Virus record (IMG/VR): IMGVR_UViG_2869271264_000002
Location: 6,179-70,178 of that record
Length of the DNA stretch: 64,000 nucleotides
Origin: a virus
Lineage: Duplodnaviria > Caudoviricetes
Direction: 5' to 3' (one strand)
The translations under genes were made by a program, and so were the position numbers. Positions 299 through 20,998 of this stretch are shown in pieces (position 1 is the stretch's first letter; every line of letters begins with the position of its first letter). The notes beneath the pieces are model-generated. The model had not been told where the DNA came from. It worked only from the letters and a program-made list of their open reading frames with translations, and ran no database searches.

Positions 299-1195
299 TC
301 ATGTCTTCGCTCTTGCCGCTCTTTGTCGTTCCAGACGCTCTGCCCGCCACATGGGGTCGGCCCATTTTGATTTGAGTTTGGCGGATCGATTGACGGCCGC
401 TTGTTTGGCTACGTATTCCGGGTCCAGCCAACGCTCGCGAGTGCGCAAGGATGACGCATCGCGATTGATCGCCGCCCTCATCTTTGCCTTGGTCGCCTCG
501 CTGTGTTTTCTGCCCAATCTAGACGCTGCCATTTTCAAGCGCGTCTCGATGGGGAGTTTTACTCCTAGACGCTGCTCAGACAGAATTTTCCTTGTCGCCT
601 CAGACACAACCTTGCCGCGCATTCGATCTGCGATTGCTTTCCGGCCCTCTTCGGACCGACAATATCTTCTCGTCCCCTCGTGGAGTTTGGCCAAACTCTC
701 CGGCGTGCACTTCGCCGCCCGCTCGCGCATATAAGCCCGATAAGAGTCGGTGTCTTGACCGCGCTTGACAGCAGCGCCGGTCCTTCTTCTCTCGTTGGGA
801 TTTTGATACCGCTTGGTGGCGCCATCTGAGAGTTTCTTCTTAATTTCCTCGGACATTTTATGCCCGATAGTGCCGTCGCCGCCGATTGTGCCATTCAGCA
901 GTGGCAATCCAACGAAACGAAGATAGCCAATCCAGAATTGCTCGGCCTCTTGCCATGCGTCGGAGGCAACCCTGTCTAATTCGACAATTTCCGGGAATTC
1001 ACCGGCAAGCAGCAGGTCACAGAGCCATTTGTGACGAGGGATATAAGTTCGGCCGCGCCTGACGTCGCTGACATGGGCGAGAAGGCGAGATTTCAAGGAA
1101 TTCTTGGTCTTTCCAACGTAGCGCAGTTGACCATCGCGGGGATCAATCAGGCCATATATGAAGACGGAAATTTGCTGTATGCTGTCGTTAGCCAC
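299..1195 (-). CDS. GIY-YIG homing endonuclease with NUMOD3-like repeats
   Basis: FIYGLIDPRDGQLRYVGKT..RL..H, EQFWI, NGTIGGDG; C-terminal H(K/S)(M)SEE.K.K(L/M) repeats. Confidence 0.9.
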   Translation of the reverse strand: MANDSIQQISVFIYGLIDPRDGQLRYVGKTKNSLKSRLLAHVSDVRRGRTYIPRHKWLCDLLLAGEFPEIVELDRVASDAWQEAEQFWIGYLRFVGLPLLNGTIGGDGTIGHKMSEEIKKKLSDGATKRYQNPNERRRTGAAVKRGQDTDSYRAYMRERAAKCTPESLAKLHEGTRRYCRSEEGRKAIADRMRGKVVSEATRKILSEQRLGVKLPIETRLKMAASRLGRKHSEATKAKMRAAINRDASSLRTRERWLDPEYVAKQAAVNRSAKLKSKWADPMWRAERLERQRAARAKT

Positions 1196-1261: not shown

Positions 1262-1978
1262 CTATATAGCCCAGTTCGACAATTCTTGCCACCACTCATC
1301 TGCGAATGGAGCGTCTTCATGCCCCAACATGAATGGCAGCCCATCGGTAAAATGGCATATGTCTGGTTCGATTTCCGGATCACTGTGACCGGCCAGCCAG
1401 TTCCACGAACAATCCAGTTCCCCGATGTCCTTATCTTCCAACCAGCAGAAGGCATGTAATTCACGCCCAGGCAGTGAGTTCACCATCTCCACTGTCAAAG
1501 CAGCGTTCGCCGGGTGCGACGCATTGAAAGCGCAAACGCTTGACCAATTTTTTCGAGAATACCTGGTTTGAATTTGACCATCCATCTTGATCCCTTCCGG
1601 CGGCTGAAAGTTGTGCTTGACAACCATCACTGCCTTCGACGGGTCGAGAAGTTTGAACAGCCTTTCGACGTTTGAACGGACTAGCATATCGCTGTCCATA
1701 AAGATTGCCCATCCGCTACCCGCCAGATGAGGGCACAGGAACCTAGAGATCGCAAATTCGGTACTCATTGGAGCACCGGAGATGTCATCCCAAAGGCGAC
1801 CATCGCGCACGGTAGTCGGTCGAGTGTATAGGCCGCGAGCGCGAAGATCCGCAAGAACCAGACCTCTCACGGGGACGGGGGTTATAAGATGTTTGTTCAG
1901 CGAATACCTTGTCACGGCGAACGCCGCAGCCTCGCGCGGATCGAATCCGATGTAGAAGGCGTGCTTGACGTGCCTCAT
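1262..1978 (-). CDS. glycosyltransferase (GT-A fold, GT8-like phage family)
   Basis: YIGFDPRE, STEFAISRFL, FMDSDML (DxD), RKNWSS, WNWL, HFTDGLP. Confidence 0.8.
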   Translation of the reverse strand: MRHVKHAFYIGFDPREAAAFAVTRYSLNKHLITPVPVRGLVLADLRARGLYTRPTTVRDGRLWDDISGAPMSTEFAISRFLCPHLAGSGWAIFMDSDMLVRSNVERLFKLLDPSKAVMVVKHNFQPPEGIKMDGQIQTRYSRKNWSSVCAFNASHPANAALTVEMVNSLPGRELHAFCWLEDKDIGELDCSWNWLAGHSDPEIEPDICHFTDGLPFMLGHEDAPFADEWWQELSNWAI

Positions 1979-2694
1979 TGGTCTTTTCTCTTGCCCTTGT
2001 GATGCTCAGTGCAGGCTGCCAATGGCGTCTTGGGCCAGGCATGCCCGCGGGCGCCGGTCGGATTGAGATCGCTGACCTTCAGTTCCGGTTCCGTCTCGAG
2101 CGCGCGGTCCCAGACGAAGGCGGAATGCCATTCGGTGAGTTTGAACACTGAGTCGTTGAGGTAGAAGTCGGCGAACAGGCGCAGCACGCGCCGCGTACCC
2201 GGGCTCATGCGCATGGCGTAGAAGCCGATTTCCGTGTGACGCCCCGGCCGCCTGATGCAGGCTACGTCCGCGCCGTCGAGCAGCGATTCAATCCAGCCGG
2301 CCGGAACCGTCGCGGTGGTTTCGGTGTCGGCGTCGAACCAGACGAAGATGTCGCCATCCTCAAGACCTTCGATGCCCGGGATGGGTGCCAGCGCCTGCGG
2401 CATCCACTTCACAGCGTCATGGCGCCATGAGTAGCCGTTCTCGTTCGTTTTCGTGCCCGCCGGCGCCCGATGGCCCATGGCGGCCATTTCGCTGCTCCAG
2501 CGGTCCAGGAATGCCCGGTAGCCGTTGATCAGTTCCAGCGGCGCTTGCTTGCCACGCGGGAGGCCAATGAAGCGGTCGGTGACCATGACCAGTTCGACAT
2601 CCGCCGGCCAATAATCCGCGAAAGTCTGCGCGAACGTGCGGCCATAGCGTTCCCATGCCGTGCCCCAGCAAAGGGAGCAGACTCGAACAGTCAT
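1975..2694 (-). CDS. putative glycosyltransferase (GT-A fold)
   Basis: WFDADT DxD motif, TEIGFYAM, EWHSAFVWD, HHKGKRK; start reassigned to ATG 2694 (AAGGA RBS). Confidence 0.65.
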   Translation of the reverse strand: MTVRVCSLCWGTAWERYGRTFAQTFADYWPADVELVMVTDRFIGLPRGKQAPLELINGYRAFLDRWSSEMAAMGHRAPAGTKTNENGYSWRHDAVKWMPQALAPIPGIEGLEDGDIFVWFDADTETTATVPAGWIESLLDGADVACIRRPGRHTEIGFYAMRMSPGTRRVLRLFADFYLNDSVFKLTEWHSAFVWDRALETEPELKVSDLNPTGARGHAWPKTPLAACTEHHKGKRKDQ

Positions 2695-2726
2695 CAGCAA
2701 ATCCTTGTTGGGGAGGCCAGAAACGC

Positions 2727-2750
2727 AAATGGCGGTCCGAAGACCGCCAT
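2727..2750 (-). terminator. intrinsic terminator-like hairpin closing the pentamer array
   Basis: ATGGCGGTC-TTCG-GACCGCCAT, perfect 9-bp stem with UUCG loop, followed by TTGCGTTTC (weak U tract). Confidence 0.7.
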
Positions 2751-2769
2751 ATCCTTGCAAAACAGCAAC

Positions 2770-2879
2770 TTGCCACGCCCTGCGCTACCTAACCTTGGTC
2801 AGCGCCGCCTAACCATGCCGCGCCGGACCACGCCATACAATGCCCGACGATGCGCAGCCTGATCGGACCGTGAGCAGCC
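2770..2879 (-). ncRNA. GGY-NN pentamer array, putative guide RNA of the adjacent RAMP protein (VIPR-like)
   Basis: 22 in-register 5-nt units: GGCTG CTCAC GGTCC GATCA GGCTG CGCAT CGTCG GGCAT TGTAT GGCGT GGTCC GGCGC GGCAT GGTTA GGCGG CGCTG ACCAA GGTTA GGTAG CGCAG GGCGT GGCAA; 14/22 start GGY, 19/22 have G at position 2, 22/22 have a pyrimidine at position 3; begins at the RAMP stop codon and ends before a terminator. Confidence 0.8.
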
Positions 2880-3490
2880 TAAGCTGCCTGTAGAAGACCG
2901 CCGCCGTCTTTCACTATTTCCCATCGGGAAACAACGAAACGACCGAAGGGGCCCTTTCGGGCCGGACGAAAGTCGCCGAGCCCGATCTTCTTACCAGCGT
3001 CATCCACAACTGCACGGACAAGCGATGGTGAAAACATTGTTTCGTCCACGTCCAAGGTGAACTTTGCCGCCCATACGTCTACGCGCGGTCGATGACACAT
3101 GATGCGGCCGCCAGTCGACGGGATAACGACCGAACGGCTATCGACTTCCCATTCCGTCAGCGGATCACCATCAAGGTCAGTCAAATTGCAGACAAGGTCA
3201 TCAACCATGATGCCGGCAGGAATGAGTGATGTCCGCAGCGTGGTTAGTTTCGATTTCCCAGCCTTGTGGAATGTTCCCGCCGCAATGATGCACGCGAAAA
3301 TGTTCGGGCCGGGGATATAGAGTTTGCCGTCACCATCAGCATACCGCTTCGGCTCCGCCTGCTGCCTTGGTGTCCCGCGGTCGCCCTTGAAATTCACCGA
3401 TGTACCGCTTGAAACGGCCACTTCGTTATGCTCGGTGAACCTGTTCATCAACAGGGGCGTAATGCCCTGAATGGTCACTTGGATTTTCAT
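2879..3490 (-). CDS. stand-alone RAMP-superfamily (Cas7/Csm3-like) protein, 203 aa
   Basis: N-terminal strand IQVTIQGITPLLM, YIPGPNIFACI (cf. Csm3 YIPGSSLKG), C-terminal glycine loop GLGDFRPARKGPFGRF; GAGGA RBS before ATG 3490; no other cas genes or CRISPR array in the window. Confidence 0.8.
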   Translation of the reverse strand: MKIQVTIQGITPLLMNRFTEHNEVAVSSGTSVNFKGDRGTPRQQAEPKRYADGDGKLYIPGPNIFACIIAAGTFHKAGKSKLTTLRTSLIPAGIMVDDLVCNLTDLDGDPLTEWEVDSRSVVIPSTGGRIMCHRPRVDVWAAKFTLDVDETMFSPSLVRAVVDDAGKKIGLGDFRPARKGPFGRFVVSRWEIVKDGGGLLQAA

Positions 3491-3531
3491 TCGGTCCTCT
3501 GGTCGCCTTGCCATCCGCCTAAATGGCGAAT

Positions 3532-3591
3532 AACGATTATCGTTTAGGCGAACATATTTCGTCAGTCTAGACTTGTCAAACGATTTTCGTT
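3532..3591. promoter_or_regulatory. paired palindromic operators AACGATTWTCGTT
   Basis: AACGATTATCGTT at 3532-3544 and AACGATTTTCGTT at 3579-3591 flank the promoter; degenerate copy at 3551-3563. Confidence 0.65.
3551..3579 (-). promoter_or_regulatory. sigma70-type promoter of the RAMP-array unit
   Basis: TTGACA (3579-3574), 17-nt spacer, TATGTT (3556-3551) on the minus strand. Confidence 0.7.
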
Positions 3592-3624
3592 ATGGTTATC
3601 GAAAATCACTTGCAAGGAGAAACC

Positions 3625-3861
3625 ATGACAATCACTCCAGAGCAATGCCGGGCCGCTCGCGCTCTCCTCGATATCTCGCAGGCAGATATGGCAGATATGG
3701 CATCAATCAGCCTCAGCACGCTCCGCAACTTTGAGGCCGGAAGATCCACTCCAATGGCAAACAATTTGACAGCACTCGAAGAGGCCATAAAGCGCTCCGG
3801 TGTCATCCTGCTGGCGAAGAATGATTTAATAGACGGCGGCGCTGGAGTTCGACTCTCTTAA
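3625..3861 (+). CDS. XRE-family HTH transcriptional regulator
   Basis: ITPEQCRAARALLDISQADMADMASISLSTLRNFEAG...GGAGVRL; AAGGAG RBS; divergent from the RAMP gene. Confidence 0.9.
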   Translation: MTITPEQCRAARALLDISQADMADMASISLSTLRNFEAGRSTPMANNLTALEEAIKRSGVILLAKNDLIDGGAGVRLS

Positions 3862-4454
3862 CCGTCGACCAATCCGCCGTGCATCCTGATGACGACGTTG
3901 CAGACGTAGGGCTGGAAGTAGATCAATGTCCTCGCCATCGAGGCGACTTCGCTTGCCTCGAGGAATCTCTTCTTCGGGTGCTCATCACGCCGGCGAATGA
4001 GGTTGTCGACGTCAGTCCTGGATGTCGTCATGCGGCAGTCGCCGATGATCCCCGGGGAGATGCCGACCAGTTGCTGATGCTGCGTCAGACGCTTGGTTTC
4101 GATGTAGCTGTGGATCAGCGCCTTCGATGAAGCGTAGTTCTCATCGAATGATCCTCGGTATCCGCTTTCGGACCCAATGATGCAGACCCGGGCGAATTCG
4201 TTGCCGGCGAAGATCAGGTCGCAGGCGCGGACGATCGAGGTGTAGTTTACCTCGATGCCTTCCTTGATCTCGGCTTCAGTCTGATCGTCGTACTTCTTCG
4301 GACGAAGCAGGCCCTGGCAGAACAGATAGCGCTGCGCGTCGATCGGGAAGTTCGGCTCCATCGGCTTGCCGTGGACGGTGACTTCGGCAGAACGGAGAAG
4401 TGTGCGGAACGCTTCGGCTATGGCACTGCGCCAGCCGGTGATGACGATGGTCAT
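3858..4454 (-). CDS. short-chain dehydrogenase/reductase (SDR)-like oxidoreductase
   Basis: IVITGWRS, IEVNY, IIGSESG, YASSK (YxxxK), ISPGII. Confidence 0.75.
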   Translation of the reverse strand: MTIVITGWRSAIAEAFRTLLRSAEVTVHGKPMEPNFPIDAQRYLFCQGLLRPKKYDDQTEAEIKEGIEVNYTSIVRACDLIFAGNEFARVCIIGSESGYRGSFDENYASSKALIHSYIETKRLTQHQQLVGISPGIIGDCRMTTSRTDVDNLIRRRDEHPKKRFLEASEVASMARTLIYFQPYVCNVVIRMHGGLVDG

Positions 4455-4455
4455 G

Positions 4456-4506
4456 TCACAACCCGATAGAGCCGAAAAGATCGGCCAAAAGATCGGCCAA
4501 AGACAT
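4456..4506 (-). CDS. possible 16-aa coupling peptide MSLADLLADLFGSIGL
   Basis: TGATG overlap with the upstream stop; its own stop lies 1 nt before the SDR ATG; contains a 12-bp tandem repeat. Confidence 0.3.
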   Translation of the reverse strand: MSLADLLADLFGSIGL

Positions 4507-5498
4507 CACGCGATCATCCCCTTGATGATCCGCTCGGCCTGTATCACCGCATCGATCTTGCCTGCGCGGACTCTCAGCGCGCGCTCGCCGACGCGAACGA
4601 CGTCAACCAATCGACTGTCTGACCCTGAAAGCGGCATGGCGCGGATGCTGAGGCGGTAATCCGCCACTTGATAGAGATCGCGCACCGCCGGGTAGAAGCC
4701 GGCCATGTCGCTGATCATGAACTGTGCCTGCCGCTCAATGTCCGCGGCGCTCAGACCATCAAGCAGGGCCTTCGCCTCACCCCAGGTCTTGCAGTTCTTC
4801 GAAAACGGCGTCCATTTCGCCGAAGAGAGGCTCGACAGACCGAGATCCTCGTTCCACACGTAAAGGCTGGGGAACGGACCGTCTGTAATTGTGACGCACT
4901 TGTCGGTAGGCCCATTCAGAAGGACCACAAGGCAGGGTTCGTAACGATCGACCCCGGCGCTGTCATTGGCGCAAAAGGTGCAGTCGATACTTAGATCATA
5001 GTCGCGGCTATCGACCTCGCCGACTGTCGTGTTGAACTTGATTGCCCCGTCCAGTTCCTTCGCAAAGAAGGCCTTGGCGTCGTCGACCACGATATGGCGC
5101 TCGCCGAGCATCACGCCGCCCTCGACATAGGTCAGGCCGAACTCGGCCGGATCGTAGAGGGTCAGGAACTCGACTTGATCGCGTAGGATCCTCGTGTAGG
5201 TGCCGAAGTCGATCAGCGAATGGTCACGCGCGACCGCATAGATGTTCACCGGGATTGACCGTGTGAATTGCCCGTATCGCTCAAGGAACTCGACCTGGTG
5301 CTCTTGGCAGGCCTTCTGCGTGGCGGAGGACCGCGGATAGTGCGGAGCTCCAAGATGCAGCCTGGCCGGGATGTTTCCCGATGCGCCGTTGAAGATGCGG
5401 CCGCTGCTCTCATGCACCTCGACGTCATGGCCGGCGGCGATCAGCGCCAATCCGATGGAGCAACCGAACCAGCCGGCGCCAAGGACGCGAACCCTCAT
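4506..5498 (-). CDS. FAD-dependent oxidoreductase
   Basis: VLGAGWFG Rossmann motif, GASGNIPARLHLG..HYPRS; start reassigned to 5498. Confidence 0.8.
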   Translation of the reverse strand: MRVRVLGAGWFGCSIGLALIAAGHDVEVHESSGRIFNGASGNIPARLHLGAPHYPRSSATQKACQEHQVEFLERYGQFTRSIPVNIYAVARDHSLIDFGTYTRILRDQVEFLTLYDPAEFGLTYVEGGVMLGERHIVVDDAKAFFAKELDGAIKFNTTVGEVDSRDYDLSIDCTFCANDSAGVDRYEPCLVVLLNGPTDKCVTITDGPFPSLYVWNEDLGLSSLSSAKWTPFSKNCKTWGEAKALLDGLSAADIERQAQFMISDMAGFYPAVRDLYQVADYRLSIRAMPLSGSDSRLVDVVRVGERALRVRAGKIDAVIQAERIIKGMIA

Positions 5499-6079
5499 AT
5501 GGAGAACCGTTCGACAAAGACGCCGTCGGCGCGCTTCTCGCGCACGGACAGGACGACTTCGATGGGCTTCTCGCGCTTGATCGCCGTCATCCAGCGAGTG
5601 GCGTTCCAGCCGAAAGGATGCAGGTCCGGCTTCTTGAAAACCTTCTTCTTCACCGGCGCGATCTTCTCGGCGATGTAGAGCGCCTTGTTCGACAGCGAGT
5701 AGAGCCGGTCGAGCACCCACGGCAGATCAAGGACCGGAATCGATCCCAAGACATGCGTGCAGATGACCAAGTCGAACTTGCCAATAGGCTCGGCGGCAAA
5801 TGGCGGATAGGCCGGGTCAAATTTGGTGACCGGGATGCCCCAATATTCCTCAATCGTCATGCCGACCGGGATGGACCCGGTCGGATCGGCGTTGCGCCAG
5901 GCGTATTGCTCGCCCTTGCCGCAGCCGTAGTCGAGAATCGTCTCGCAACCCAGGCGCTCGATGATCTCCTTGATGAAAGGAGCGTGCGGCCGCAGGAACT
6001 TGCCGGAATAGGTCTTGTGCTCGGCGTGGTGACGCGTGGCGTCAGCAAGCGCGGCCCGGTACTGCTCGCTCGGTTTCAT
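5495..6079 (-). CDS. class I SAM-dependent methyltransferase
   Basis: ILDYGCGKG motif I, FDPAY, FDLVICTHVLGSI. Confidence 0.85.
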   Translation of the reverse strand: MKPSEQYRAALADATRHHAEHKTYSGKFLRPHAPFIKEIIERLGCETILDYGCGKGEQYAWRNADPTGSIPVGMTIEEYWGIPVTKFDPAYPPFAAEPIGKFDLVICTHVLGSIPVLDLPWVLDRLYSLSNKALYIAEKIAPVKKKVFKKPDLHPFGWNATRWMTAIKREKPIEVVLSVREKRADGVFVERFSI

Positions 6080-6081
6080 GA

Positions 6082-6942
6082 TTACCCGTAAATCTGCGGA
6101 CGGATGATCTGCCACGCCTCGCCGTCTGCGTATTCCGGCAGAGTGAATTGGGCGTATGCAAGATTCGCCAGCCACTGGTTCCGATCACGACGTTTGACCA
6201 TCAGTGGCGACTCGATGTCAGCCAGCTTGACCGACGAGATCGGCTTCGCCACCGCATCACCAAGTACAACGCATGGAATGCCGGCGAGGACAGCTTCAAA
6301 GCAGGCGTTCGAGCCGTGGGTGACGACCGCGTGCGCGCCGTCGAGAACTTGGTCGATGGTCTCGCCTTCCCCGTAGGAGAACCGAGCACCGTCGATCGCA
6401 ACCGCTTCTTTCCAGCTTGGCTTCGGCCGATAAACGATCGGGCGGTCGCTGAACTGGCGGAGATGTCGGACAAGGCTTTCTGCGTATTCAGTGGGCTCCG
6501 GAAGCCCATAGAAAGCGTTGTATTTGGCCGATGATCCAGCGATGACAATGTGGTCACCGATGGTCCGCCATGGCTTGACCTTCAGGCGCAGTCTCTGCAG
6601 CCGGTCCGCCGGCCGCGGCGTCTTCATCAGATACCGCGTCGGGTGATGACCGTCGACCGACACGCGCCAGTATTCCCATGTCTTGATCGGGCCGCCGGCG
6701 CTGTGCCGCGAATAACCCTTATCCAAAAGGATGGTGTGAATCCCTGCGCGCCAGTTCGCCTGATAGAGTTCCTTGCTCTTCACGCCGACCATGACCGCGA
6801 CTTCGCAATCTGAAGCGACCTGAACATCGCCATCCAACTGCCTGACAACCGCCTCGTCGCCGTGTTCGATCACGCCGCGCGCGAAGGCATCGGCAAGCAG
6901 ACCCTCACGGGGTTTAGACGAGCGATAAAAGCAGACCTTCAA
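6082..6942 (-). CDS. KpsC/KpsS-like (GT-B) glycosyltransferase, paralog 1
   Basis: IVYRPKP...VVTHGSNACFEAVLAGIP...R..WL..LAYAQF. Confidence 0.55.
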   Translation of the reverse strand: MKVCFYRSSKPREGLLADAFARGVIEHGDEAVVRQLDGDVQVASDCEVAVMVGVKSKELYQANWRAGIHTILLDKGYSRHSAGGPIKTWEYWRVSVDGHHPTRYLMKTPRPADRLQRLRLKVKPWRTIGDHIVIAGSSAKYNAFYGLPEPTEYAESLVRHLRQFSDRPIVYRPKPSWKEAVAIDGARFSYGEGETIDQVLDGAHAVVTHGSNACFEAVLAGIPCVVLGDAVAKPISSVKLADIESPLMVKRRDRNQWLANLAYAQFTLPEYADGEAWQIIRPQIYG

Positions 6943-7787
6943 GGCAAGAGCCCTTCCGATTTAAGATGCCGCCAGGCGACACCCTCAGTCATTTCCTGCA
7001 CGTCGAACTGGCACCAAGCGATGTCGTTGACGAGTTGCTCGCGGTCACCGTGGCGCCGCGGCTCTTCGATCTTCGATAGGTCAGACAATGCCAACGGAGA
7101 CGCGAGCCCTTCCATGCAGAAGGCAGGCACGCCAGCAATCAATCCATCGATCGAAACATTCGAGTGATGCGTGACCACCGCATGGCAGCCCACCAGCATC
7201 TTCCTGACGTCGTCGCGAGTCTGTTGGAACATCGATCCCGGGATAGGCGACGCACCAAGCCAACTGGGCTTCGCGCGGTAGATGATCGGGCGATCGGTAT
7301 GCCTGCGGAGTTCCGCGACCGCCCAGCGCTCCCATTCCTCCGGTGCAAAGCCGTCAACGACGGCGCCCTTGTCGCTTGTTCCGGCAACCAAGATGTGGCT
7401 ACCTGTCGTCCATTCGCTGAATTTTATCCCGAACTTGGCGGCGCGTGAGCCGTCATGGCTGCGGTTCTGGAAATAGGAGGTTGGGTGCCGACCGTTGACC
7501 GAGACCTTGTGATAACCAGTCCAGCGCCCGAGATCCTTACGGCCCCAATATCCGAGATCGACATAGACAACCGGCCGGCCGGCATCCCGATAGCCCTTGA
7601 AAACAGCCCGGAGCGTTTCGTCAAAGCCATAAAAGACGGCGATATCCGAGTCCGGAGATTTGAAAGACGTCGAAGGCATGACGCGAACATTGTCGCCCAC
7701 CCGATGGATGCCCTGCGCCATTGCCGCGCCGATGAGCATTGACCGCTTGTGCGCCGGAATCTGATAGACCGTTACCCGAGCAGACAC
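6939..7787 (-). CDS. KpsC/KpsS-like (GT-B) glycosyltransferase, paralog 2
   Basis: IIYRAKP...VVTHHSNVSIDGLIAGVP...R..L...IAWCQF. Confidence 0.55.
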   Translation of the reverse strand: MSARVTVYQIPAHKRSMLIGAAMAQGIHRVGDNVRVMPSTSFKSPDSDIAVFYGFDETLRAVFKGYRDAGRPVVYVDLGYWGRKDLGRWTGYHKVSVNGRHPTSYFQNRSHDGSRAAKFGIKFSEWTTGSHILVAGTSDKGAVVDGFAPEEWERWAVAELRRHTDRPIIYRAKPSWLGASPIPGSMFQQTRDDVRKMLVGCHAVVTHHSNVSIDGLIAGVPAFCMEGLASPLALSDLSKIEEPRRHGDREQLVNDIAWCQFDVQEMTEGVAWRHLKSEGLLP

Positions 7788-8539
7788 TTAAACGGCGTTC
7801 CTTCTTGGATTTCCTCGGAGGACCACTGCGCATAGGCAAGACTGCGGAGCATCGGCAGGCGATCGCCAAGGAATGGATTTTCGATGTCACTGACGCCACA
7901 CTTGGCGGCTGGTCCGCCGATCCATGTCGGCATATCGTGGAAGACTGGGACACCAGCAACGATCGACTTGATGCCGGCGCCGCTTGCCCAGGTCACCGCG
8001 GCCCATGCATGCTGCAGGTCCGGATCAGTCTTTTCCTTGCCTGGGTGCGGGCGAATCCTTATCGGCCGGTCCGTCACCTTCCGGAGACGCTCAACGACCC
8101 TTGCCGTCCAGTCAGACGGCATCGCAATGCCAGGTTCACCTATCCCGCGCTGCGGCAGAACAACGATCTCGCCGCCACAGGAGCGCCATGGCAGCAAGTT
8201 GATGCCAAGTTGATCCCATCGGTCGCCGGCGCCCTCAACCCACGCGCCGGCGCCCAGATGGTGCCCCAGCGCAAGCGCATAGAGCAGGTGCCCGTCCCTA
8301 TCTTTCCCGATGTAGCCATTTTCGGCCACCAGAACCCTTGCGCCAGCCTTCTCGTACCGATTGGCGAGATCGTGATTACCTCTCGACCGATTCCAAATCA
8401 GCAAGACGTCCGTCGGACCAGGCCTTTCCTTCGGCGGATGCCCGACTGCATATCCGAGGCGAGCCAATCCTCTCCGAAAGACGTCCCGTCGATAATACGG
8501 CGAGTCGCTGAAGGTGTCGGAGGCGACGCCTATGACCAT
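7772..8539 (-). CDS. KpsC/KpsS-like (GT-B) glycosyltransferase, paralog 3
   Basis: IRIRPHP...AVTWASGAGIKSIVAGVP...R..ML..LAYAQW. Confidence 0.55.
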   Translation of the reverse strand: MVIGVASDTFSDSPYYRRDVFRRGLARLGYAVGHPPKERPGPTDVLLIWNRSRGNHDLANRYEKAGARVLVAENGYIGKDRDGHLLYALALGHHLGAGAWVEGAGDRWDQLGINLLPWRSCGGEIVVLPQRGIGEPGIAMPSDWTARVVERLRKVTDRPIRIRPHPGKEKTDPDLQHAWAAVTWASGAGIKSIVAGVPVFHDMPTWIGGPAAKCGVSDIENPFLGDRLPMLRSLAYAQWSSEEIQEGTPFKCLLG

Positions 8540-9147
8540 TCGGTGTCCAGATTGATCCTTGGCAGCCAGGTGATCGTGCTTTTGATGGTCGCGTTGACCA
8601 CCGCAATCTTGCGGCGCGCGAGCTCGTCGGTCAGGCCGCGGAAATGCTTGCGCCAGTTTTCAGTGTTGGAGTGGAGATCCATCCCGGGACCGTGAGGTCC
8701 GAACCAATGCGACTTGGCGCCGTCGTCGGAGAAATCGAAGGCGACAATGACGATCCGACGGGCGCCGAGTTGCGCGGCCAGATGGACCGCTTGGTAGCCG
8801 CTGTTGCAGCCACCACGGATACAGCCTGGCGTGTCGTCAAAGCCTTCAATGCCGGTGTTCTTGAGCGTCCGGACGTCATGGAAACCGGTGATCTCGAGCG
8901 AGGTCTTCAACCCGCGAAATGCAGGCACTCCCTTGTGCATATTCCACCAGCGCTTGTCGGACGCATGCAGGATATCAGCAAACCAGCAAGGGTAGATCGC
9001 ATCGTTGATGGCAATGACGCGTATCTTGTCCTCGGCGCGCGCCATACCGATCCTGCGAATCTGGCTGAGCGTGAGCGATGGGCCGCCAGCGGCAACAACC
9101 ACCGGCCGATCGCCGAATGGTGCGATGGGGAGGCATGTGACGGCCAT
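8530..9147 (-). CDS. Maf/DUF115 (MptE-like) putative nonulosonic-acid glycosyltransferase
   Basis: VVAAGGPSL, IAINDA, NSGYQAVHLAAQLGARRIVIVAFD, VVNAT. Confidence 0.65.
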   Translation of the reverse strand: MAVTCLPIAPFGDRPVVVAAGGPSLTLSQIRRIGMARAEDKIRVIAINDAIYPCWFADILHASDKRWWNMHKGVPAFRGLKTSLEITGFHDVRTLKNTGIEGFDDTPGCIRGGCNSGYQAVHLAAQLGARRIVIVAFDFSDDGAKSHWFGPHGPGMDLHSNTENWRKHFRGLTDELARRKIAVVNATIKSTITWLPRINLDTEWS

Positions 9148-9764: not shown

Positions 9765-9841
9765 TGGTTGCGGGAAACGGATTCGAACCGCTGTCCTTCT
9801 GGTTATGAGCCAGACGAGCTACCAGGCTGCTCTATCCCGCG
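9765..9841 (-). tRNA. tRNA-fMet (CAT), initiator type
   Basis: cloverleaf with C1:A72 mismatch, anticodon arm TCTGG-CTCATAA-CCAGA, GGTTCGAATCC, encoded CCA. Confidence 0.93.
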
Positions 9842-10164: not shown

Positions 10165-10240
10165 TGGTGCCACCGGGGTAGAATCGAACTCCCGGCCCGC
10201 TGCTTACGAGGCAGCCGCTCTACCACTGAGCTACGGCGGC
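10165..10240 (-). tRNA. tRNA-Thr (CGT)
   Basis: GCCGCCG/CGGTGGC acceptor stem, GCTGC-CTCGTAA-GCAGC anticodon arm, TTCGATT, encoded CCA; one bulged A in the T stem. Confidence 0.88.
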
Positions 10241-20771: not shown

Positions 20772-20998
20772 GGCGCCGGCGGCCTGGCGTCGACGAGGTG
20801 CGACCCGACGACGACGAGACCGACGAGCGGCACGACGACGAGCGGCGGCACGGCAAGGCGACGAGGCGCGGTTGCGATTGATCCGATTGAGAATGAAGGC
20901 GACGGCATGAGCTTGGCCGTGCGGCGCGGCGCGGTGCGACCTGGCAAAGCGCGGCGCGGCCATGCGCTGCAGCTGGACGGCGCGGCGTGGCACGGCAT
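20772..20998 (+). repeat. degenerate GGY-NN pentamer tract (second, orphan array)
   Basis: 20923-20998: GGCGC GGCGC GGTGC GACCT GGCAA AGCGC GGCGC GGCCA TGCGC TGCAG CTGGAC GGCGC GGCGT GGCAC GGCAT; looser GGC/GACGA units upstream. Confidence 0.55.

What the first reader, a model, noticed from the sequence alone, without database searches (positions are those of the whole stretch)
2727..3490. Stand-alone Cas7/RAMP-like gene followed directly by a GGY-NN pentamer array and terminator: candidate non-CRISPR RNA-guided system
Seen: a 203-aa protein with RAMP hallmarks (TPLLM strand, YIPG, glycine loop GLGDFRPARKGPFGRF). Starting at its stop codon are 22 perfectly phased 5-nt units (2879-2770) with a constant triplet (14 GGY, 22/22 pyrimidine at position 3) and a free dinucleotide, closed by a UUCG hairpin. 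No CRISPR repeats or cas1/2/3 are present. Established: Cas7-type RAMPs polymerise along RNA with a fixed nucleotide period. Inference: each subunit grips a GGY and displays the NN, giving a programmable guide with no repeat-spacer layout. This fits my recollection of recently reported viral VIPR-type systems, which I cannot verify here.
Basis: partly seen in the sequence, partly recalled or inferred. Interest (0 to 1): 0.95.

Follow-up and report, generated by a model that had tools for sequence, protein, structure and literature searches.

The report
VIPR guide-RNA system in Mesorhizobium phage
This is a real RNA-guided gene-silencing module of the recently published VIPR kind, carried as a 1.2-kb insert by a Mesorhizobium phage, and its single guide is predicted to match a gene end in related phages that lack the insert much better than it matches the phage's own copy.

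Summary
A 203-aa RAMP protein (2879-3490, minus strand) is followed from its stop codon by 22 in-phase pentamers: 14 GGY, 19 NGY, and a pyrimidine at position 3 in all 22. A short conserved handle and a UUCG terminator hairpin follow.

- The protein matches the solved SUSP1 Vipr and shares phrog_4652 with it.
- It keeps the RNA-contacting Arg, Asp, aromatic and Arg residues.
- It folds like Csm3/Cas7 (Z 11).
- 76% of 99 homologous loci carry the same kind of array downstream, against 1.3% of control blocks.

New here is a predicted target. Read with the published one-base-skip rule, the guide matches the last ~22 codons of an SDR-like gene. It matches 34-39 of 44 positions in eight related Mesorhizobium (pro)phage sequences without the cassette, but only 27/44 in the phage's own copy. 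That site abuts the cassette's insertion point, upstream of glycosyltransferase, terminase and portal genes.

Verdict: a new member of a known kind. Expression and silencing are untested.

The parts
2879..3490 (-). vipr gene, 203 aa, a minimal RAMP (P0001)
   Evidence: phmmer match to PDB 36pp_D 'SUSP1 Vipr protein', E 1e-5. phrog_4652 at E 4.6e-21 over the full length; a Felixounavirus Vipr hits the same family at 4e-96. hhalign probability 97.2%. AF2 pLDDT 78. Top fold matches are all Csm3/Cas7/Cmr4/Csf2, Z up to 11.1.
2770..2879 (-). vrRNA guide region: 22 in-phase pentamers (NGY + NN), starting in the vipr stop codon
   Evidence: The tract is not significantly structured (z -1.46). Units 1-21 take part in the predicted target match.
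2751..2769 (-). 3' handle after the repeats, ending in GCAAGGATA
   Evidence: The motif CAAGGRW follows the arrays in 42 of 99 homologous loci. It recurs every ~100-110 nt in the multi-guide loci L013, L016 and L047.
2719..2750 (-). Intrinsic-terminator-like hairpin (9-bp stem, UUCG loop) with a T-rich tail
   Evidence: GC-rich hairpins with different sequences, most followed by a T run, sit at the same place in many relatives.
3551..3579 (-). Sigma-70-like promoter (TTGACA, 17 nt, TATGTT) upstream of vipr
   Evidence: This is a consensus match only.
3532..3591 (.). Two copies of a 13-bp palindrome, AACGATTWTCGTT (3532-3544 and 3579-3591), bracketing the promoter; likely operators
   Evidence: The operator role is an inference.
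3592..3861 (+). Divergent XRE-type HTH gene (89-aa ORF; called as 78 aa in other assemblies). Its stop overlaps the SDR stop.
   Evidence: Pfam HTH_3, E 4e-9; PHROG repressor families; gene calls. It is a conserved neighbour in 11 of 15 loci whose Vipr is at least 75% identical, and in almost none of the more distant loci.
2697..3873 (.). The whole cassette: an insertion relative to related phages
   Evidence: Alignments of L128, L129, L152, L153, L155, L156, L157, L159, L161 and L162 to the window break at ~3873 and resume between 2442 and 2711, at 2694-2711 in eight of the ten.
3867..3932 (+). The phage's own copy of the predicted target site (3' end of the SDR-like gene 3858-4454, minus strand); matches the guide at 27/44
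   Evidence: The skipped bases fall on third codon positions.

Best explanation
This is a VIPR (Viral Interference Programmable Repeat) system carried on a 1.18-kb cassette in a tailed Mesorhizobium (pro)phage. The cassette holds an XRE-type regulator with two operator-like palindromes, a promoter, vipr, one vrRNA and a terminator.

By homology with the solved SUSP1 system, Vipr protomers would polymerise along the vrRNA, one per pentamer. Each would bury the (N)GY bases and present the NN dinucleotides, and the filament would bind double-stranded DNA that matches NN-x-NN-x and block transcription there. That mechanism is inferred, not shown here.

The single 22-unit guide is predicted to recognise the last ~22 codons of an SDR-like gene in related phages that lack the cassette. 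Those codons lie directly next to the place where the cassette sits in this phage. They are upstream of co-oriented glycosyltransferase, terminase, portal and head genes.

The phage's own copy has diverged at 17 of 44 guide positions, so it should largely escape. The likely role is competition between related phages in the same host, for example a resident prophage against an incoming relative, or the reverse.
For: Protein:
- Homologous to the solved SUSP1 Vipr and in the same PHROG as a Felixounavirus Vipr; hhalign probability 97.2%.
- The residues that hold G2 and Y3 in SUSP1 (paper .720927) are kept. R138 aligns with R134, D177 with D173, W178 with F174 and R179 with R175. The two Arg columns are R in 59 of 60 family representatives.
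- RAMP fold over residues 1-200, Z 11.1, rmsd 5.5 A, 170 residues aligned to Csm3.

RNA:
- The phased array is far above chance.
- 76% of 99 non-identical homologous loci have at least 10 of 12 in-phase NGY units within 400 nt downstream, and 58% have them upstream. Control blocks reach that in 1.3% of cases. Of the 17 loci with a low downstream score, 13 score 10-12 of 12 upstream.
- Entropy is 0.37 bits at position 2 and 1.0 at position 3, against 1.9 at positions 4 and 5.
- A conserved 3' handle follows the arrays.

Target:
- An unbiased 8-unit seed scan of IMG/VR found 24 contigs. Only two proviruses extended to the full guide (39/44 and 36/44); the other 22 stayed at 22-27.
- The same site scores 34-39/44 in eight distinct cassette-free relatives and 27/44 in the phage itself.
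- Permuted guides reach 27 anywhere in the phage's own genome in 5 of 300 trials and never exceed it.
- Skipped bases fall on wobble positions, as the papers report.
- The two target proviruses have no vipr and are syntenic with this phage at 70-84% identity.
- TerL and portal genes lie downstream on the same strand.
Against: - There are no expression, binding or silencing data for this locus.
- The guide has 22 units, more than the 9-16 called typical.
- Three units (CTCAC, GATCA, ACCAA) break even the NGY rule.
- No vap1 homologue is present, and the VIPR type (I-VII) could not be assigned because the paper's tables are not held.
- One relative scores 0.77, under the published 0.8 cut-off. 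Two cassette-free relatives (L152, L159) score as low as self.
- The self site keeps five perfect units in a row, so some self-binding is not excluded.
- Whether a block at the SDR gene's 3' end stops expression of the packaging genes depends on operon structure, which was not tested.
Confidence: 0.82

Rival explanations
1. The cassette regulates the phage's own late operon. The guide's partial match (27/44, five perfect units in a row) to the phage's own SDR 3' end, 380 nt from vipr, would be the real site. Vipr would tune read-through into the glycosyltransferase and packaging genes.
For: The self-match is the best in the 70-kb genome and is reached by only 1.7% of permuted guides. It lies next to the cassette with its skips on wobble positions. 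An XRE regulator with operators suggests controlled expression.
Against: The match is 0.61, well under the 0.8 used in the papers. The same site in cassette-free relatives matches much better, at 0.77-0.89. A lower self score than rival score is the published pattern for avoiding autoimmunity. The authors report no self-targeting hit at or above their cut-off for any guide they searched against its own contig.
Confidence: 0.08
2. The cassette is a selfish, homing-like element. It aims at the 'empty site' of relatives and so favours genomes that carry it. Alternatively, the guide was copied from the flanking DNA when the cassette arrived, which would hint at how guides are made. Either would be a special case of VIPR action rather than a different system.
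For: The target's first unit abuts the SDR stop codon, exactly where the cassette is inserted. All ten related sequences examined lack the cassette at this junction. The same junction holds other small inserts in relatives: a MazE/AbrB-like gene in L153 and a methyltransferase in L159.
Against: This rests on one locus. Across 69 other guides of the family, the own locus was the best match in 5 cases against about 1.7 expected, which is weak support, and some of those lie in low-complexity DNA. No nuclease or recombinase sits in the cassette, so no copying mechanism is evident. A cassette-free relative (L152) already carries a low-matching allele.
Confidence: 0.07
3. The protein is a RAMP with another role, such as an RNA-binding or anti-CRISPR decoy. 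The pentamer tract would be a 3' UTR or a compositional oddity without guide function.
For: No transcript or RNP data exist for this locus. Rfam has no family here. Tandem Repeats Finder does not call the tract.
Against: Arrays go with the gene across 99 loci while NN varies freely. The RNA-contact residues of a solved Vipr are kept. The NN string has a near-full-length match in related phages that chance does not give.
Confidence: 0.03

Closest known systems
VIPR systems, type II (Escherichia phage SUSP1 and a Pseudomonas fulva prophage); bioRxiv 10.64898/2026.04.26.720920 and .720927
   Same: - A small single-RRM RAMP with a G-loop and thumb, and the same G2/Y3-contact residues.
- A pentamer guide with a fixed triplet and a free dinucleotide, placed next to vipr in a phage.
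- No cas genes and no repeat-spacer array.
- A predicted target that follows the one-base-skip rule, with skips on wobble positions, in a competing mobile element.
   Different: - About 29% identity over the C-terminal three-quarters of the protein, by tblastn to Felixounavirus records.
- The first base of the triplet is free: G in 46-50% of units across the family.
- The His that reads G1 in SUSP1 is Asn16 here.
- One guide of 22 units, against several guides of 9-16 units.
- The 3' end is a short GCAAGGATA handle plus a plain terminator hairpin; no pseudoknot tail like the one reported for SUSP1 was looked for or seen.
- No vap1 (phrog_5926). Instead there is a divergent XRE-type HTH gene with operator-like palindromes.
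VIPR types with one vrRNA or the alternative YNNNG consensus (same paper, type-classification methods)
   Same: The paper states that some systems encode a single vrRNA, and that NNNGG, YNNNG and NNNNG repeats occur. In the paper's frame, the NGY/NN unit seen here is YNNNG.
   Different: The paper's tables and figures are not held, so I could not check whether this Mesorhizobium clade is among its 667 systems or which type it belongs to.
Class 1 CRISPR backbone subunits (Csm3, Cmr4, Cas7, Csf2)
   Same: Same fold over the whole protein (Z 9-11). One protomer per fixed RNA period, with a thumb that flips bases.
   Different: 12-16% identity. No repeat-spacer array, no Cas1 or Cas2, and a 5-nt period in place of 6. 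By homology with the published systems, pairing with the target would be non-contiguous.
SUSP1-family solo vrRNAs with lower self scores than rival scores (bioRxiv 10.64898/2026.10.15.759431)
   Same: The guide matches relatives' DNA better than the homologous self sequence, and its periodicity follows codons.
   Different: There the targets are vipr genes, vrRNAs or satellite genes. Here the target is a metabolic (SDR-like) gene end beside the cassette's own insertion point in sibling phages.

Membership tests
VIPR system | Vipr protein: a small RAMP (RRM core, G-loop, thumb) homologous to described Vipr proteins | tested here: met
   PDB 36pp_D SUSP1 Vipr, E 1e-5. Shared phrog_4652. hhalign probability 97.2%. 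Z 11.1 to Csm3 over residues 1-198. G-loop motif GLGDFRP...GRF.
VIPR system | Residues that hold the GGY bases in the solved structures (H17, R138, D177, W178/Y176, R179) | tested here: met
   R134, D173, F174 and R175 align with R138, D177, W178 and R179. H17 aligns with N16; that column is N in 24 and H in 19 of 60 representatives.
VIPR system | A tandem pentamer RNA next to vipr: GGY/NN or a related consensus, at least 4 units and typically 9-16 | tested here: met
   22 units, 14 GGY and 19 NGY, starting at the stop codon and above chance. Longer than the typical range.
VIPR system | Scaffold conserved and NN hypervariable among relatives | tested here: met
   Arrays are present in 76% of loci downstream and 58% upstream, against 1.3% of controls. 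Entropy is 0.37 and 1.0 bits at positions 2 and 3, and 1.9 at positions 4 and 5. Relatives with 80-83% identical proteins have unalignable NN strings.
VIPR system | A conserved 3' tail after the repeats | tested here: inconclusive
   A CAAGGRW handle occurs in 42 of 99 loci and is often followed by a GC hairpin. The SUSP1-type pseudoknot was not sought with a model, and no covariation test was run.
VIPR system | A vap accessory gene beside vipr | tested here: inconclusive
   No co-oriented second gene is present. The SUSP1-clade vap1 belongs to phrog_5926, and that family is not among the matches of the HTH gene or the other flanking ORFs scanned. The only conserved neighbour is a divergent HTH_3 gene, found in 11 of 15 close loci. 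The paper says some vap genes are HTH-like, but I could not compare them.
VIPR system | A minimal locus in a virus or provirus, without a CRISPR array or cas genes | tested here: met
   A virus record of 70 kb with TerL, portal and DnaB-like genes. An identical locus lies in a 6.3-Mb chromosome. No Cas1, Cas2 or CRISPR-like repeats.
VIPR system | The guide matches a mobile element under the one-base-skip rule at 80% of NN positions or more, with no self hit at that level | tested here: met
   0.80-0.89 in seven distinct related (pro)phage sequences and 0.77 in an eighth; 0.61 for self. Decoy seeds give 22-27 of 44.
VIPR system | The vrRNA is expressed, co-purifies with Vipr, and directs sequence-specific DNA binding and repression | not testable with these tools
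   Needs small-RNA sequencing, a pull-down and reporter assays.
CRISPR-Cas | A repeat-spacer array with cas1/cas2 or an effector operon | tested here: not met
   The only RAMP is the stand-alone gene.

The most novel reading that the evidence does not exclude
The cassette's only guide is aimed at the 66 bp that border its own insertion point in sibling phages without the cassette. VIPR would then work here as a homing-like 'empty-site' weapon that penalises cassette-free genomes. Alternatively, the guide was derived from the flank on arrival, which would be a first hint at how VIPR guides originate.
Probability: 0.15. Interest if true: 0.75.

Novelty: new member of a known kind. Interest (0 to 1): 0.42.

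Why it matters
VIPR was described only in 2026, and its experiments come from enterobacterial and Pseudomonas phages. This locus is a clean, compact example in a phage of a nitrogen-fixing rhizobial host.

It has one guide, one regulator and one predicted target, with sensitive, self and apparently resistant alleles of that target available in public data. That makes self versus non-self discrimination directly testable, along with the tolerance of a 22-unit guide to mismatches. The link between a relaxed first base in the RNA and the His-to-Asn change in the protein also becomes testable. It does not change the picture of what VIPR is.

Tried and rejected
- **Family libraries.** Pfam and NCBIfam gave no family for the protein. 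Rfam gave nothing for the RNA. Tandem Repeats Finder does not call the array.
- **Own genome.** The best match is 27/44.
- **Mesorhizobium genomes.** In 202 species genomes, units 10-22 with up to 3 mismatches gave no hit. The SDR-like protein gave no hit at E 1e-20 in 401 genomes of the family. The target phages are therefore not in those representative genomes.
- **IMG/VR seeds.** Four exact 9-unit seed scans gave either nothing or chance hits of 25-27/44. They spanned guide units 12 or 22, or in one case units 2 and 4, all of which mismatch in the true targets. An 8-unit seed over units 14-21 succeeded.
- **All guides against all flanks.** 193 guides were scanned against all fetched flanks. 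Apart from this phage's guide, only short guides sitting exactly at the threshold scored, which is probably chance.
- **Is 'target beside the own cassette' general?** The own locus was best for 5 of 69 guides, against about 1.7 expected. This is too weak to claim.
- **Second CAAGGAT at 2700.** I first took it for a second handle. It is the ribosome-binding site of the next gene and is shared with cassette-free relatives.
- **GC-rich tract at 20908-20998.** It was checked as a possible orphan guide. It fits NGY in two phases, is 77% G+C and has no handle, so it remains unresolved.
- **VIPR type.** It could not be assigned because the paper's supplementary tables are not held.

Full report
**What is in the sequence.**
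On the minus strand, an ORF from 3490 to 2879 encodes a 203-aa protein. From the last base of its TAG stop down to 2770 there are 22 pentamers in one register. Fourteen begin GGY, 19 fit NGY, and all 22 have a pyrimidine at position 3. The other four registers hold 0-1 GGY.

No other place in the 64-kb window reaches 7 of 12 phased GGY on either strand. The maximum here is 9, and 100 Markov simulations never exceeded 6.

The repeats are followed by about 20 nt ending in GCAAGGATA, and then by a 9-bp stem with a UUCG loop and a T-rich tail at 2750-2729. A TTGACA-17-TATGTT promoter-like site lies upstream of the gene at 3579-3551. Two copies of a 13-bp palindrome bracket it. A divergent XRE-type HTH gene lies at 3592-3861.

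**The system is already published.**
A literature search found three preprints on 'Viral Interference Programmable Repeat' systems. In them, a small ancestral RAMP called Vipr polymerises on a vrRNA built of alternating GGY and NN. The NN bases pair with double-stranded DNA while one target base is skipped per unit, and binding represses transcription. The systems are mostly phage-borne and are aimed at competing mobile elements.

The paper lists variants with a single vrRNA and with the relaxed consensus forms NNNGG, YNNNG and NNNNG.

**Protein membership.**
- P0001 has no Pfam or NCBIfam family.
- It matches the solved 'SUSP1 Vipr protein' (PDB 36pp_D) with E 1e-5.
- It belongs to phrog_4652 (E 4.6e-21, full length). 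A Felixounavirus Vipr hits the same family at 4e-96.
- A profile of its close relatives aligns to that Vipr with 97.2% probability.
- The AlphaFold model (pLDDT 78) matches only CRISPR backbone RAMPs at the top. Foldseek gives E 2e-6. VIA-align gives Z 11.1, rmsd 5.5 A, 170 residues aligned to Csm3.

The cryo-EM paper names the residues that hold G2 and Y3, and two of them were validated by mutation. Their counterparts here are R134, D173, F174 and R175. The two arginine columns are R in 59 of 60 diverse representatives.

The family is large, with 2,436 clusters at 50% identity and E up to 0.001.

**RNA membership.**
I fetched 119 loci encoding relatives, from genomes, IMG/VR and metagenomes. 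Of 99 non-identical loci with enough flank:
- 76% have at least 10 of 12 in-phase NGY units within 400 nt after the stop codon.
- 58% have them before the gene.
- Control blocks from the same loci reach that in 1.3% of cases.
- Of the 17 loci that score low downstream, 13 score 10-12 of 12 upstream.

Over 3,599 units, position 2 is G in 94-95%. Position 3 is C or T in 98-99%. Positions 4 and 5 are close to random, at 1.9 bits. Position 1 is G in only 46-50%. The unit in this clade is therefore NGY/NN, which is YNNNG in the paper's frame.

The His that reads G1 in SUSP1 aligns with Asn16 here. That this substitution explains the free first base is my inference.

Relatives whose proteins are 80-83% identical have quite different NN strings and array lengths. 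A CAAGGRW handle follows the arrays in 42 of 99 loci and repeats every ~100-110 nt in multi-guide loci.

**Context.**
- The window is part of a 70,178-bp virus record.
- A locus identical in the 212-nt stretch compared (the end of vipr, the array and the start of the next gene), with the same flanking gene order, lies in a 6.3-Mb chromosome and in other assemblies. The phage is therefore temperate.
- The names that sources give to the closest homologues point to Mesorhizobium.
- There is no Cas1, Cas2 or CRISPR-like array.

**A predicted natural target.**
I decoded the guide with the published rule, in which each triplet is replaced by one wildcard. Its best match in its own genome is 27/44, at 3867-3932 on the plus strand. 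That is the 3' end of the SDR-like gene next to the cassette, and the skips fall on third codon positions. Permuted guides reach 27 in only 5 of 300 trials, but 0.61 is below the published 0.8 cut-off.

I then asked whether orthologues of that gene in other phages match better. They do. Two IMG/VR proviruses score 39/44 and 36/44 at the homologous site.

An independent, unbiased scan of all IMG/VR with an 8-unit seed returned 24 contigs. Only those same two proviruses extended across the guide; the other 22 stayed at 22-27.

Six more related contigs reached through SDR homologues score 39, 39, 37, 36, 35 and 34. Two further relatives, with a different amino-acid motif at the site, score 28 and 25.

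The two target proviruses have no vipr. They are collinear with this phage at 70-84% identity over 20 kb.

**The cassette is an insertion.**
In all ten related sequences the alignment to the window stops at about 3873. It resumes at 2694-2711 in eight of them and at 2442 in the two most divergent. In L128 the SDR stop is followed within ~20 nt by the ribosome-binding site and start of the next gene, and the gene calls for L152, L155, L156, L157 and L162 show the same tight spacing. So HTH, promoter, vipr, vrRNA and terminator form one 1.18-kb insert.

The first unit of the target abuts the SDR stop codon, which puts the target directly at the border of the insertion point. The same junction holds other small genes in some relatives.

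The phage's own SDR gene is 75-87% identical to those of the relatives overall. Its mismatches to the guide cluster in units 1-2, 9-13 and 19-20, where its protein reads CNVV in place of the usual SGT(I/V).

**Mechanism, and what is inferred.**
- Shown here: homology, fold, conserved contact residues, array statistics, co-occurrence across the family, the target match, the lower self score and the insertion architecture.
- Inferred from the published work on SUSP1 and P. fulva: filament assembly, gapped pairing and repression.
- Inferred from gene order: that binding at the SDR 3' end would block expression of the rival's downstream glycosyltransferase and packaging genes.
- Inferred from the palindromes: that the HTH protein controls the vipr promoter.

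How the RNA's 5' end is made is unknown. It could be processed from the vipr transcript or come from an internal promoter.

**Verdict.**
This is a genuine VIPR system and so not a new kind of system. Its relaxed first base and single guide fall within variants that the paper lists. I could not tell whether its long guide, plain terminator tail and XRE neighbour do, or which of the seven types it belongs to.

The added value is a concrete target prediction with sensitive, self and apparently resistant alleles. The target also sits beside the cassette's own insertion point. A test of whether that holds for other guides gave only weak support.

Noticed in passing
window 20908-20998 (+): A GC-rich non-coding tract (77% G+C) with 10-11 NGY-type pentamers, then a 1-nt phase slip and four GGY units. 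It fits NGY in two registers at once and lacks the GCAAGGATA handle. Whether it is an orphan vrRNA is unresolved.
   Followed up: partly
window 299-1195 (-): A NUMOD3-type homing-endonuclease-like gene sits between the glycosyltransferase genes and the terminase region. This segment (about 268-1340) is missing from relatives L153, L155, L156 and L157 and present in L159, so it is a second indel in the same operon.
   Followed up: partly
L153:3088-3309 and L159:3091-3750 (junction equivalent to window ~2697/3873): In related phages the same SDR/glycosyltransferase junction holds other small inserts: a MazE/AbrB-like gene in L153 and a Methyltransf_21 gene in L159. This suggests a hot spot for cargo genes.
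   Followed up: no
L152:634-1224 and L159:2501-3094: Cassette-free relatives whose SDR 3' end matches the guide as poorly as the self copy (28/44 and 25/44), with CNVV or NRVV in place of SGT(I/V). They are possible escape alleles.
   Followed up: partly
window 1262-9147 (-): A run of co-oriented sugar-modification-type genes surrounds the cassette: two glycosyltransferase-like ORFs, an SDR, a methyltransferase, a 286-aa ORF with a weak DUF6716 glycosyltransferase match plus two further ~255-285-aa ORFs of the same size and orientation, and a sialyltransferase/DUF115-like gene. They lie upstream of the packaging genes.
   Followed up: partly
window 9765-9841 and 10165-10240 (-): Two phage-borne tRNA genes, Met (CAT) and Thr (CGT). 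The tRNA-Met resembles those of large Caulobacter phages.
   Followed up: no
L151:1406-2473 (-), i.e. G000 1406-2473: An HNH endonuclease gene lies between the portal and head-protease/capsid genes.
   Followed up: no
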